A DNA stretch of 61,719 bases, filler included, from Candidatus Woesearchaeota archaeon (lineage in GTDB: Archaea; Nanobdellota; Nanobdellia; Woesearchaeales; JAWBMQ01): the NCBI GenBank assembly GCA_038825875.1. It is 6 parts of 6 records of this genome, joined end to end, with 100 filler letters (N's around TTAATTAATTAA, not from the genome) between each part and the next. Parts side by side here need not be neighbours in the genome. Positions count along the whole stretch, not along the records: positions 1 to 16,248 come from JAWBOS010000017.1; 5 more parts are not named here. The stretch is one strand, 5' to 3'. How positions within the stretch are numbered: position 1 is the stretch's first letter; each line of letters opens with the position of its first letter. Shown here in pieces: positions 1-3,000 of this stretch. The position numbers were made by a program.

Positions 1-3000
1 CTATTAAAGGCCTAAACAAAATCCTGTTTAAAAATAAATCTCAATATAATATATAAATTTTTCGTTTATTTAACCAAAATATACTCTTAAAAGACTAAAA
101 AGAATTCCTAAATAAAAATGTTTTGGTTAGTTGAAGAAGAACAGAATGGCATTAGAAATTTAAAAAAATTTATAAATGGAAATCACCTTTAAAAAGCAGG
201 AAATCAACTAATTGAAAGAGGGGGAAAATGATAGATGATATCCTAAAAGAAGTTCTAAAACCAACTCATATAAAAGTAATTGGCACTGGAGGAGCAGGTA
301 ATAACACAATAAATAGATTAAAAGAAAATGAAATTGATGGTGTTGAATTGATTGCTGCAAACACGGATGCTCAAGTCCTATTACACATAAATGCTGACAA
401 AAAAATATTGCTTGGAAAAGAATTGACAAAAGGCCTTGGTGCTGGTGCAGATCCAGCAATTGGTGAAAAAGCAGCTGAAGAAAGTGCATCAGAACTAAGA
501 AAACATTTGGAAGGTGCAGAAGTAATTTTCATCTCGTGTGGTCTTGGTGGAGGAACAGGAACCGGAAGTGCACCAATAATAGCAAGAATTGCAAAAGAAT
601 TGAATGCTTTAACAATTGCAGTAGTAACTCTACCATTTAAAATGGAAGGAAAAAGAAGAATGAAAAATGCTCTAGATGGATTAAAAAAATTAAAAGAACA
701 TGTAGATTCTATATTAGTAATTCCCAATGATAAATTGCTAGAATTAAGTCCTCAACTATCACTAAATGCAGCATTTAAAGTGGCAGACGAAATAATCACG
801 AATACAATAAAATATACAGTTGAACTCATCAACAAGCCTGGAATTGTTAACGTAGATCTGGCAGATATGAGAACTGTGTTGAAGGAGAAAGGCTATGCTA
901 TGATAGGAATTGGAGAAAGCGATTCAAAAAATAGAGCTGAGGAAGCAGTACAAAATGCATTGCATAATCCTCTTTTAGATATAGATATCTCCGACGCCAA
1001 ATCTGCACTCATTAATGTAATTGGCGGACCAGATTTGTCTTTGGGTGAAGCAGCAACAGTAGGAAATATTGTTTCAGAGTATCTAAGTGAAGATGCCACA
1101 ATCATTTGGGGAGCCATGATAGATGAGAACTTAGATAAAACATTAAGAGTTTTAGTGATAATCGGTGGAATTGAAGAAGATCTGGTTGACAAATATGAAT
1201 CAATTTACTTACTAGGACAAAAGCCTAAACCTAAAAGTAAATCTAAGATAGAGGACATTGAAATTGATTTTATTGACTAAAATTAAAAAAACTTTTAAAT
1301 CCTCTCTTTTTCTTCTTTGTGATTGTATATGCATAGGAATAGCTAAAAAAATCGATTCAATAGCCCCGTGGTGTAGAGGCCAAGCATGGGAGGCTCTGGA
1401 CCTCCAGACTCCGGTTCGAATCCGGACGGGGCTATATTCAAAATAAAAAAAATAAAAATAAAAAAAATAAAAATGAAAAAAAGGAATGAAAACACAACCA
1501 TAAATATATTAAAGGCAAAGATAGTAAATGGAAGCCTAAAACCATCTGCCGGTGTTGCAAAAAGTTCTGATATTGTCGAAGCTTTTCTAAAAGAAAATAT
1601 ATTTTCTTCAATAAAACTTCATGATAAATCATTCTTACTTAAGTTTTGGGAAATAGAAGATAGTAAAAATCTATATGCAGATTTAGCTAGAATTGAAAAC
1701 TATTTAGAAAAAGAAAAAATTAACATCATTATTGGAGGAAATCACGTAATAAGCTATGCAGGTATAAAAAAGTTTAAGGAAAAATACAAAGATGGCAAAA
1801 TAATAATTTTTGATGCACATCCTGATGCAGAATCAGACTTCTTTATTTCAAATGACACTTACCTAAGAATTTTAATAAAGAAAGAGATTGTAGCTCCTGA
1901 GGACATTATCTTGATCGGAATAAGAAACTCCTCACTGAAGGAGACCGAGTTCCTAAAGAAAAACAAGATTACTCTATTCACAAGCTACGAATTGCTTAAA
2001 AATCCTAAAGAGGCAATTAGAACGTTGAAAATGTTAGATATACCTGTTTATGTTTCTATTGATATCGATTCAATCGATCCAAGTTATGCACCTGGCACTA
2101 ATTTTCCTGAAAGTTTTGGAATAACCCCTATACAACTTTTTTTTATTTTGGAAAATATAAGAAATATAAAACTCGCAGATATTGTAGAAATTGATTCTGA
2201 AAAAGACATAAATAATTTAACTTGCTCGTTGGGTGCACACATCATTTATGAGTTATGCTACTTATTGAAAAAATGAACAAAAAATTTTAAATACCTGTAA
2301 TATTTTTGTTAAGATGCGCGGGTGGCCCAGCGGCTACGGCGGTCGGCTGCAGACCGATTTTTCGGGGGTTCGAGTCCCCCTCCGCGCTTATTCATTGTAT
2401 AGCATTAAAATCAGTCTAAATTCTACTAAACCCCTTAAAATGTGAAAAATTTATAAAAAAAATAAATTATCTCAAAACAATCTTTGGGTCCGTAGCTTAG
2501 TGGTAGAGCGTCGGCCTTATATGGCTACTCTACCGTCTAGGAAAGCCGAAGGTCAGGGGTTCGAATCCCCTCGGACCCAAATTCCAAATTTAAATTTCAA
2601 TAGAAGGTGATAAATATGGAAAAAAATCAAAGATCAACGAAAAGAACTGCGCACAAAAGATCGGAAAGAGGAAAAAAATCAAAAGCCCAAAAAACGAAAT
2701 CAAAAAAAATAATAGTCTCCACTATAATCGGCTTAATCGTTCTAATTTCAATAATTGGAGTACTCTTTTTTACAAGAATATCATTCCAAAAGGGAAAACA
2801 AATGCAAGAAAGTACTCCTCAAAAAATGAATATATACATATTTGGAGATTTTGAATGCCCTTACACAAAGAGAATTGGTCCTGTATTAGAAAATATTATA
2901 AAGAGTTACGGTGACAGAGTAAATGTAATTTATAAGCACTTGCCTTTGTCTTTTCATCCAAATGCACTTCCAGCTGCAATAGCTGCAGAATGCGCAAAAT

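What a model noticed while it worked through the whole genome (the two positions that open the first line are those of the whole stretch)
2485..2580. TiaS-free order: AUA read by an intron-bearing tRNA-Ile(UAU) throughout Woesearchaeales
The genome has a tRNA-Ile with UAU anticodon and a ~21-nt BHB intron at 37/38, and no agmatidine synthase TiaS. The same intron-bearing tRNA and the lack of TiaS hold across the relatives seen, so a whole archaeal order likely decodes AUA the eukaryotic way, with the always-kept intron serving as recognition element for anticodon pseudouridylation that stops AUG misreading. tRNA-Ile(UAU) was reported as a species-specific gain of N. equitans and Korarchaeum.
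Evidence so far: calls 84,87 (G025,G074: Ile-UAU with 25-27 nt intron, Ile-GAU without); calls 88,93 intron-bearing Ile-UAU in G015,G019,G039,G102,G131,G144,G185; no intron-less match with the gap allowed down to 0 (call93, 5 of 51 matched the strict pattern); call90 TiaS_FLD 0 of 101, 4 archaeal controls positive.
(Added by a program. Inside this text positions count along the whole contig: they may not be those of the stretch shown here. "Call 12" and the like, gene names such as g00115 and contig names such as C1 are that model's own, and its searches are not shown. The text may have been shortened before it was handed on; [...] marks where a part breaks off. The agent that wrote the report below was given it as the finding of a first reader that could run no searches.)

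Follow-up and report, generated by a model that had tools for sequence, protein, structure and literature searches.

The report
Self-guiding intron in archaeal tRNA-Ile(UAU)
This is a real isoleucine tRNA gene with a UAU anticodon and a 22-base intron in a tiny archaeon whose group lacks the usual enzyme for reading AUA, a solution already known from a few relatives; the newer part is that the intron is predicted to pair back onto its own tRNA and in most relatives carries an ACA-like signal 14 bases on, a shape that likely lets the enzyme Cbf5 turn the first anticodon base into pseudouridine.

Summary
Confirmed: window 2486-2579 is tRNA-Ile(UAU) with a 22-nt bulge-helix-bulge (BHB) intron at 37/38. 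TiaS was not found in 201 order or 251 phylum genomes. The gene was verified in 124 of 150 order genomes, never intron-less. The strategy itself is published (ARMAN-2/4/5, N. equitans, Korarchaeum), and this scan noted it on other DNA at least eight times. The yeast route is unavailable: TruA/Pus1 was found in 0 of 28 order genomes. Across 195 UAU introns, intron nt 2-5 pair with tRNA nt 29-32 with compensatory changes. Intron nt 6-13 find a helix partner of 6 bp or more in 151 of 166. ACA stands at intron nt 15-17 in 55 of 166 (NCA 97); 57 long CAU-tRNA introns have none. This matches the 3' half of an H/ACA guide (14-nt rule) aimed in cis at U34. Cbf5 is nearly always present; four genomes lacking Cbf5 and Nop10 lack the box. 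Against: no modification data; the window's own box is degenerate; Gar1 was not found; box-less introns occur with intact Cbf5; U33 could be the target. An earlier scan note hinted at the refolding.

The parts
2486..2521 (+). 5' exon of tRNA-Ile(UAU), positions 1-37; anticodon TAT at 2518-2520
2522..2543 (+). 22-nt intron at 37/38; its 3' end (UAGG-AA) forms the BHB splice motif with C32-A35
2544..2579 (+). 3' exon, positions 38-73 (A73; no encoded CCA)
2513..2526 (+). Predicted upper helix of the alternative fold: G29-C32 (2513-2516) with intron nt 2-5 (2523-2526), capped by U33-U34-A35-U36-A37-U(i1)
   Evidence: fold; covariation in relatives
2501..2535 (+). Predicted lower helix: D-arm UGGUAGAG (2501-2508) with intron nt 7-14 CUCUACCG (2528-2535)
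2536..2538 (+). Position of the ACA/NCA box in relatives (intron nt 15-17); degenerate here (UCU), UCA in the same-genus genome G107
10539..11033 (-). tRNA splicing endonuclease (EndA) gene, the likely enzyme that removes the intron

Best explanation
The gene encodes an isoleucine tRNA with a UAU anticodon that likely reads AUA in a lineage where TiaS was not found, and its intron is predicted to refold onto the tRNA as the 3' half of an H/ACA guide, so that Cbf5 would convert U34 (and possibly U36) to pseudouridine before splicing. Shown from sequence: the gene, the intron, the lack of TiaS, TruA and Pus10 hits in the order, covarying intron-exon pairing, and an ACA/NCA triplet at intron nt 15-17 in relatives. 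Inferred steps: (1) The precursor first folds with intron nt 2-5 on tRNA nt 29-32 and intron nt 6-13 on a second partner: the D-arm, the freed 3' exon, or a later part of the intron. This gives a composite helix of about 10-12 bp, then one nt, then the box. (2) Cbf5-Nop10 binds helix and box and modifies U34, which lies 14 nt from the box; the unpaired U34-A35-U36-A37 fits the UVUN pattern that can give two pseudouridines. (3) The RNA refolds to the BHB form and EndA splices it. (4) Pseudouridine at 34 would bar Elp3-type C5 modification, which would otherwise broaden reading to AUG. In the window's own gene the helix is present but the box is degenerate.
For: Box: ACA at i15-17 in 32 of 83 long introns of the first set (shuffled mean 1.0, max 6 in 2000), NCA in 50 of 83 (5.1). 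In 89 further introns: ACA 24 of 84 (1.2), NCA 48 of 84 (5.2). Six more genes found by a pattern blind to the box: 4 ACA, 1 GCA. Control CAU-tRNA introns at 37/38: ACA 0 of 57, NCA 0 of 57, full 4-bp upper helix 0 of 92, against 66 of 106 for UAU. Covariation: when the exon base is a minority state, the intron partner still pairs at position 31 in 14 of 14 (5.9 expected), at 30 in 10 of 16 (0.3), at 29 in 17 of 28 (3.8), at 26 in 22 of 37 (6.6). On alignment A1, 82% of cells pair against 37-46% for slid registers. Intron nt 6-13 have a partner run of 6 bp or more in 151 of 166 (D-arm 100, 3' exon 15, intron 36; shuffled 32.6), against 8 of 57 for CAU. In G000 the alternative fold is the minimum-energy form, -43.8 against -37.9 kcal/mol when BHB is forced. 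Enzymes in 28 order genomes: TruA 0, Pus10 0, Cbf5 27, TruD 26; Cbf5 in 78 of 80 more; Elp3 5 of 5. Of 7 genomes without a Cbf5 hit, 4 also lack Nop10 and none of these has the box; the only three first-set introns without G at i2 are among them. The 3 that keep Nop10 have AAA or ACA at i15 or i16. Papers: 14-nt target-to-ACA distance and weight on the 3' guide strand (PMC2651775, passages); Cbf5 PUA anchors on CCA or better ACA, composite helix 10-12 bp, Nop10 offsets a missing CCA (PMC2018633, passages); 3'-side pairing alone gives some pseudouridine in vitro, ACA dispensable in typical cases, UVUN gives two (PMC7075261, abstract and two of three parts of the Discussion); a U34 mutant archaeal tRNA-Ile gets cnm5U and binds AUG (PMC3895270, passages).
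Against: No modification, structure probing or splicing was observed. The window's own intron has UCU at the box position. My written prediction that box-less introns go with damaged Cbf5 failed inside the order: 17 of 18 genomes of the box-less hairpin-type group had a normal-scoring Cbf5. Gar1 was found in 0 of 5 genomes, yet it is required for guide-free modification of 23S U2607 in T. kodakarensis (PMC6138745, passages). PMC7075261 says pairing on both sides of the pocket is needed in vivo and that the 5'-most unpaired U is modified; intron nt 1 is U in 156 of 195, so U33 could be hit unless U33 is held by i1 or A37. There is no upper stem or K-turn. Position 25 shows no covariation (5 of 10 paired, 6.8 expected). 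Shuffles do not correct for kinship; two of the four Cbf5/Nop10-less genomes look closely related, and completeness of the four is not given. The 89 further introns were found with a model trained on 54 genes, nearly all from the first set. In yeast, loss of Psi34 gave no detectable AUG misreading.
Confidence: 0.52

Rival explanations
1. The refolded intron only shields or times processing: it keeps U34 away from Elp3 or delays splicing, and the mature tRNA reads AUA with unmodified U34, as in Mycoplasma mobile.
For: M. mobile tRNA-Ile(UAU) has unmodified U34 (PMC3575796, passages). Elp3 is present in 5 of 5. Box-less introns keep the helix beside intact Cbf5.
Against: It does not explain a triplet at a fixed 14-nt distance or its loss with Cbf5 and Nop10. 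In yeast pus1 mutants the spliced tRNA still receives ncm5U, so an intron alone does not shield.
Confidence: 0.17
2. A stand-alone enzyme other than Cbf5 (TruD/aPus7 or an unrecognised protein) reads the refolded precursor and modifies U34 or U36.
For: TruD is present in 26 of 28 order genomes. P. abyssi aPus7 acts at anticodon position 35 and prefers UA steps (PMC2651775).
Against: TruD was not found in 20 of 77 UAU-bearing genomes, including all six titled Aenigmatarchaeota, whose introns keep the upper helix. U34 in C-U-U-A-U does not fit the Pus7 consensus quoted. Pus10 is absent from 28 of 28 order genomes.
Confidence: 0.12
3. Cbf5 does bind the helix-plus-box, but the modified base is U33, or the structure guides another RNA in trans.
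For: The 5'-most unpaired U of a run is modified by archaeal H/ACA RNPs (PMC7075261); intron nt 1 is U in 156 of 195.
Against: Counting from i1 gives the canonical 14 nt for U34 and 13 for U33. Intron nt 1 is U, A or G (able to face U33) in 190 of 195, whereas in CAU introns it is U in only 6 of 92. The feature is confined to UAU tRNAs.
Confidence: 0.1
4. The intron is a neutral relic, and its complementarity comes from an old inverted duplication plus splice-motif constraints.
For: Introns at 37/38 are common in archaeal tRNAs, including CAU tRNAs and some GAU genes. The sequences are related.
Against: Compensatory changes, three different partners for one strand, a fixed-position box across several phyla, and none of this in 92 CAU introns. 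No intron-less archaeal copy in 124 genomes.
Confidence: 0.06
5. One reading: a Pus1-type (TruA) enzyme recognises the intron-containing precursor as in yeast.
For: [quoted passage not shown]
Against: TruA was found in 0 of 28 order genomes and 6 of 78 overall, with the control ringing in 13 of 14.
Confidence: 0.03

Closest known systems
tRNA-Ile(UAU) of ARMAN-2/-4/-5, Nanoarchaeum equitans and Ca. Korarchaeum cryptofilum (PMC3239211, PMC6000648, PMC3895270; passages)
   Same: UAU anticodon; no tRNA-Ile(CAU) and no TiaS in the ARMANs; a 37/38 BHB intron in ARMAN-2 and an intron in Korarchaeum.
   Different: Those papers treat a few genomes, and PMC6000648 calls it a species-specific gain. Here it holds in 124 of 150 genomes of one order and in records of several other groups. 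The passages read give no role for the intron.
Yeast pre-tRNA-Ile(UAU) and Pus1 (PMC6582322, PMC11408192, PMC4090602; passages)
   Same: An intron-dependent route to pseudouridine at 34 that also blocks Elp-type modification is the proposed outcome.
   Different: Pus1 belongs to the TruA family (recalled), which was not found in the order. Here the intron carries an H/ACA-like helix and box pointing to Cbf5.
Box C/D guide nested in the archaeal tRNA-Trp intron (PMC11408192, PMC4090602; passages)
   Same: A tRNA intron that encodes the guide for modifying its own position 34.
   Different: That is a C/D guide for 2'-O-methylation acting in trans. This would be a half H/ACA guide that needs its own exon to form the helix, so it acts in cis.
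H/ACA sRNA Sso1/sR115 guiding Psi35 in pre-tRNA-Tyr, and guide-free Cbf5 activity on tRNA U55 and 23S U2603/2607 (PMC2651775, PMC11077068, PMC2018633, PMC6138745; passages)
   Same: Cbf5 acting on an intron-containing anticodon arm; 14-nt spacing; helix plus ACA or CCA anchor.
   Different: Sso1 is a separate RNA with upper stem and K-turn. Here guide strand and target are one molecule, with no 5' pocket strand and no K-turn.

Membership tests
Archaeal tRNA-Ile(UAU), TiaS-independent | Cloverleaf tRNA with UAU anticodon, A37, A73 | tested here: met
Archaeal tRNA-Ile(UAU), TiaS-independent | No TiaS and no third CAU tRNA in the genome | tested here: met
   TiaS; two CAU tRNAs only, assigned as initiator and elongator Met from recalled features; the tRNA set of G000 has gaps (no Phe called)
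Archaeal tRNA-Ile(UAU), TiaS-independent | Charged with Ile and reads AUA | not testable with these tools
   Indirect only: AUA is 8200 of 207,450 codons and aligns mostly to I/V/L in Cbf5 homologues
Canonical 37/38 BHB intron | 4-bp helix between two 3-nt bulges; EndA in the genome | tested here: met
Box H/ACA guide RNA | ACA/ANA box 14-16 nt from the target U | tested here: inconclusive
   ACA in 55 of 166 long introns and NCA in 97; not met in the window's own gene (UCU)
Box H/ACA guide RNA | Lower stem plus 3' pocket duplex of about 10-12 bp | tested here: met
   (predicted and covarying, not probed)
Box H/ACA guide RNA | Upper stem with K-turn/K-loop and a 5' pocket strand | tested here: not met
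   The anticodon loop joins the intron directly. So it is not filed as an H/ACA RNA; it works like the 3' half of one
Box H/ACA guide RNA | Core proteins Cbf5, Nop10, L7Ae, Gar1 | tested here: inconclusive
   In G000: Cbf5, Nop10, L7Ae-like ORF by a recalled motif; Gar1 0 of 5
Box H/ACA guide RNA | Directs pseudouridine formation | not testable with these tools
   needs biochemistry
Pus1/TruA intron-dependent route | TruA-family enzyme present | tested here: not met
   0 of 28 order genomes

The most novel reading that the evidence does not exclude
Across DPANN archaea and Korarchaeia, the tRNA-Ile(UAU) intron is a cis-acting half H/ACA guide that lets Cbf5 write Psi34 and then Psi36, giving the same Psi-A-Psi anticodon as eukaryotes by a different, RNA-guided route. 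It would be the pseudouridine counterpart of the self-guiding C/D intron of tRNA-Trp, and the reason this intron is kept.
Probability: 0.35. Interest if true: 0.85.

Novelty: new variant of a known kind. Interest (0 to 1): 0.62.

Why it matters
How TiaS-less archaea read AUA without misreading AUG is left open in the papers read (PMC3895270 names the nanoarchaeon and korarchaeon as unexplained cases). The census shows this is the rule for a very large archaeal order, not a species-level oddity. The intron's conserved geometry gives a specific, cheap test: a short transcript and recombinant Cbf5-Nop10. If right, it gives a function for an archaeal tRNA intron, a natural cis substrate for Cbf5, and a convergent route to the eukaryotic anticodon.

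Tried and rejected
(1) tRNA-Tyr introns as a control in the order: the pattern hit 1 of 201 genomes, so it gave nothing; CAU introns from metagenomes were used instead. (2) Expression and splicing: no RNA holder listed; four runs laid, 0, 0, 5 and 0 reads, the five being partial matches that run on as another sequence, so no test. (3) The prediction that box loss tracks Cbf5 damage failed within the order. Outside it the signal is small: 1 of 7 Cbf5 proteins without a PUA hit over cut-off goes with ACA, against 3 of 3 with one (10 of 14 fetched proteins scanned). My first 'no PUA' class was based on profile coverage and was too crude. (4) Origin of the UAU gene: spliced-body identity is 0.70 to Ile2(CAU)-like, 0.69 to GAU (5 genes) and 0.66 to Met, so unresolved. 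(5) TIGR01213 hits are cross-hits to Cbf5, not Pus10. (6) Bacterial hits are UAU tRNA-like genes with a long arm, not introns; dropped. (7) L063, in a record titled Omnitrophota with bacterial-type TruB and TruA, was dropped from then on as likely chimeric. (8) Rows dropped before counting: 155 pattern matches parsed, 122 passed the stem checks, 115 kept after removing bacterial, chance, intron-less and unpublished rows, 107 unique. For CAU, 92 unique of 120 matches passed. (9) Literature searches that listed no paper describing this intron architecture. The library lacks most subscription papers, and no supplements were read.

Full report
Observation. Window 2486-2579 is a tRNA gene (Rfam 69.3 bits; ARAGORN) with anticodon TAT at 2518-2520 and a 22-nt intron at 2522-2543, between positions 37 and 38. 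The intron end can pair with C32-A35 between two 3-nt bulges, the BHB splice motif, and a splicing endonuclease gene lies 8 kb away in the window. The genome (746,641 bases, 99.3% complete) has two CAU tRNAs, which I read as initiator and elongator Met from recalled features, and an intron-less Ile-GAU. Its tRNA set has gaps, so absence of a third CAU gene in this genome alone proves little. AUA is 8200 of 207,450 codons in a crude ORF set and aligns mostly to Ile, Val and Leu in Cbf5 homologues.

Breadth. TiaS_FLD was found in 0 of 201 order genomes, 0 of 251 phylum genomes (many belong to the same order) and 0 of 50 other UAU-bearing genomes, with 4 of 4 archaeal controls positive each time. 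A second TiaS domain gave 0 of 5, and TilS gave nothing over cut-off in 5. A model of the 5' exon plus intron start, run on 150 order genomes at least 90% complete, with the hits read out and a follow-up pattern on the 30 left over, verified the gene in 124. Two strong hits in unpublished genomes (G105, G124) were not fetched and not counted; the TiaS and census denominators include unpublished genomes, and no sequence claim rests on them. In 24 genomes nothing was found, which may reflect extra introns or assembly gaps. No verified gene lacks the intron; one is cut by a contig end. The one intron-less UAU gene among 201 genomes is on a 1.4-kb, 53% GC contig with an FtsH fragment, likely bacterial. 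No tool named the order. Some same-order genes are identical to genes in records titled Candidatus Woesearchaeota, others to records titled 'uncultured Methanosarcinales', which I take as a mislabel; Woesearchaeales is therefore likely but inferred. A scan of 13 of 64 parts of the species collection found the same gene in records titled Micrarchaeota, Aenigmatarchaeota, Iainarchaeum, Pacearchaeota, Undinarchaeota, Thermoproteota and Methanodesulfokora.

What is known. Fujishima 2011 (PMC3239211, passages) reports UAU without TiaS in ARMAN-2, -4 and -5, and a 25-nt 37/38 intron in ARMAN-2. Wu 2018 (PMC6000648, passages) lists N. equitans and Korarchaeum as species-specific gains. The scan's own notes hold eight earlier findings of the trait on other DNA; one (e1-9874583) says the intron can refold onto the tRNA, and that note steered what I tested. 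The decoding strategy is thus known, and the census extends it.

The intron. I parsed 107 unique UAU introns (106 after dropping L063) and then 89 more. Numbering intron bases i1, i2 and so on, i2-i5 pair with tRNA nt 32-29. All four pairs form in 66 of 106 and 46 of 89, and in 0 of 92 control introns at the same site in CAU tRNAs. Where the exon has a minority base, the intron still pairs far more often than expected at positions 31, 30, 29 and 26, but not at 25. On a 54-gene alignment the proposed register pairs 82% of cells against 37-46% when slid. Strand i6-i13 has a partner of at least 6 bp in 151 of 166 long introns (shuffled 32.6; CAU 8 of 57), and the partner varies: D-arm 100, 3' exon 15, downstream intron 36. 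Then, at i15-i17, comes ACA in 55 of 166 and NCA in 97; neighbouring positions hold at most 4 ACA per set, and CAU introns have none at that place. In the window's gene the alternative fold is the minimum-energy structure (-43.8 against -37.9 kcal/mol with BHB forced; tertiary contacts not modelled), but the box reads UCU; the same-genus genome G107 has UCA. These tests do not correct for kinship, and the second set was found with a model trained on 54 genes, nearly all from the first; six genes found by a box-blind pattern gave 4 ACA and 1 GCA.

Mechanism. A composite helix of 10-12 bp followed by ACA, with the target U 14 nt away, is what Cbf5 binds in archaeal H/ACA particles and, with CCA, on tRNA (PMC2018633, PMC2651775; passages). 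Counting from i1, which faces U33, puts U34 at the target position, and U34-A35-U36-A37 fits the UVUN pattern in which two uridines are modified in turn (PMC7075261; abstract and two of three parts of the Discussion). Among 28 order genomes, TruA and Pus10 were found in none, Cbf5 in 27 and TruD in 26; Cbf5 was in 78 of 80 more. Four genomes lack both Cbf5 and Nop10 and all four lack the box, while the three Cbf5-negative genomes that keep Nop10 have one. Elp3 is present in 5 of 5. An archaeal U34 tRNA-Ile mutant receives cnm5U and binds AUG (PMC3895270, passages), and in yeast Psi34 prevents ncm5U (PMC6582322, passages), so making Psi34 before splicing would have a purpose. All steps from folding to decoding are inferred.

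Against. Box-less introns coexist with normal Cbf5 inside the order, contrary to my written prediction; PMC7075261 says the box can be dispensable, which softens but does not remove this. Gar1 was not found in 5 genomes, though it is needed for one guide-free Cbf5 reaction in vivo (PMC6138745, passages). The same H/ACA study says both pocket sides are needed in vivo and that the 5'-most unpaired U is modified, which could mean U33. Yeast without the intron showed no AUG misreading in a reporter, and M. mobile manages with unmodified U34 (PMC3575796, passages).

Novelty and verdict. Ten literature searches listed no paper on a cis H/ACA-like tRNA intron, and the passages read in two reviews of tRNA introns name only the C/D case for archaea (PMC11408192, PMC4090602). 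Subscription papers and supplements were not seen; PMC11077068 was read in passages. The gene itself is ordinary for its lineage (about 0.95 that it is a working tRNA-Ile). The intron fold is very likely under selection (about 0.9). Cbf5-made Psi34 is my best mechanism at about 0.5. It is not a member of the H/ACA family, since it lacks the upper stem and K-turn, but it appears to work like the 3' half of one. Class: new variant of a known kind; interest 0.62.

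Noticed in passing
G000 C1:28790-28899 (Trp), C2:34913-35030 (Met), C4:4245-4376 (Leu-CAA); outside the window: Three tRNA introns carry an antisense to their own anticodon arm, then CTGA, then RTGATG; the fifth base before CTGA faces C34 in each. These look like self-guiding C/D introns for Cm34; only the Trp case is in the reviews I read.
   Followed up: partly
L191 = G041:C34:16400-18000: In G041 the tRNA-Ile(UAU) gene lies directly downstream of cbf5 on the same strand. One case only.
   Followed up: no
L031-L033, L038, L044, L050, L052, L061 and others: Bacterial records (Acidobacteriota, Actinomyces, Pyrinomonadaceae) hold tRNA-like genes with UAU anticodon and a long extra arm; they may be allo-tRNAs (recalled name).
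   Followed up: no
L396, L409, L410: Long UAU introns (55-78 nt) in which the helix-plus-box element sits after an inserted hairpin, possibly a nested intron or a true upper stem.
   Followed up: no
window 1386-2276 (+): An arginase/agmatinase-family gene lies between tRNA-Gln and tRNA-Cys, 200 bp before the tRNA-Ile gene; agmatine is the TiaS substrate, and the link may be chance.
   Followed up: no
G058:C61, G082:C44, G177:C16, G063:C17, G025:C10: Cbf5 open frames of 830-890 aa with the profile match split in two, suggesting an intein or large insertion.
   Followed up: no
order-wide: No Pus10 in 28 order genomes, so Psi55, if made, would have to come from guide-free Cbf5.
   Followed up: partly
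window 16249 onward: The window is a join of six contigs (C17, C18, C21-C24) with N spacers, and C17 ends in a 72-bp tandem repeat coding CGDGIC-type repeats.
   Followed up: no
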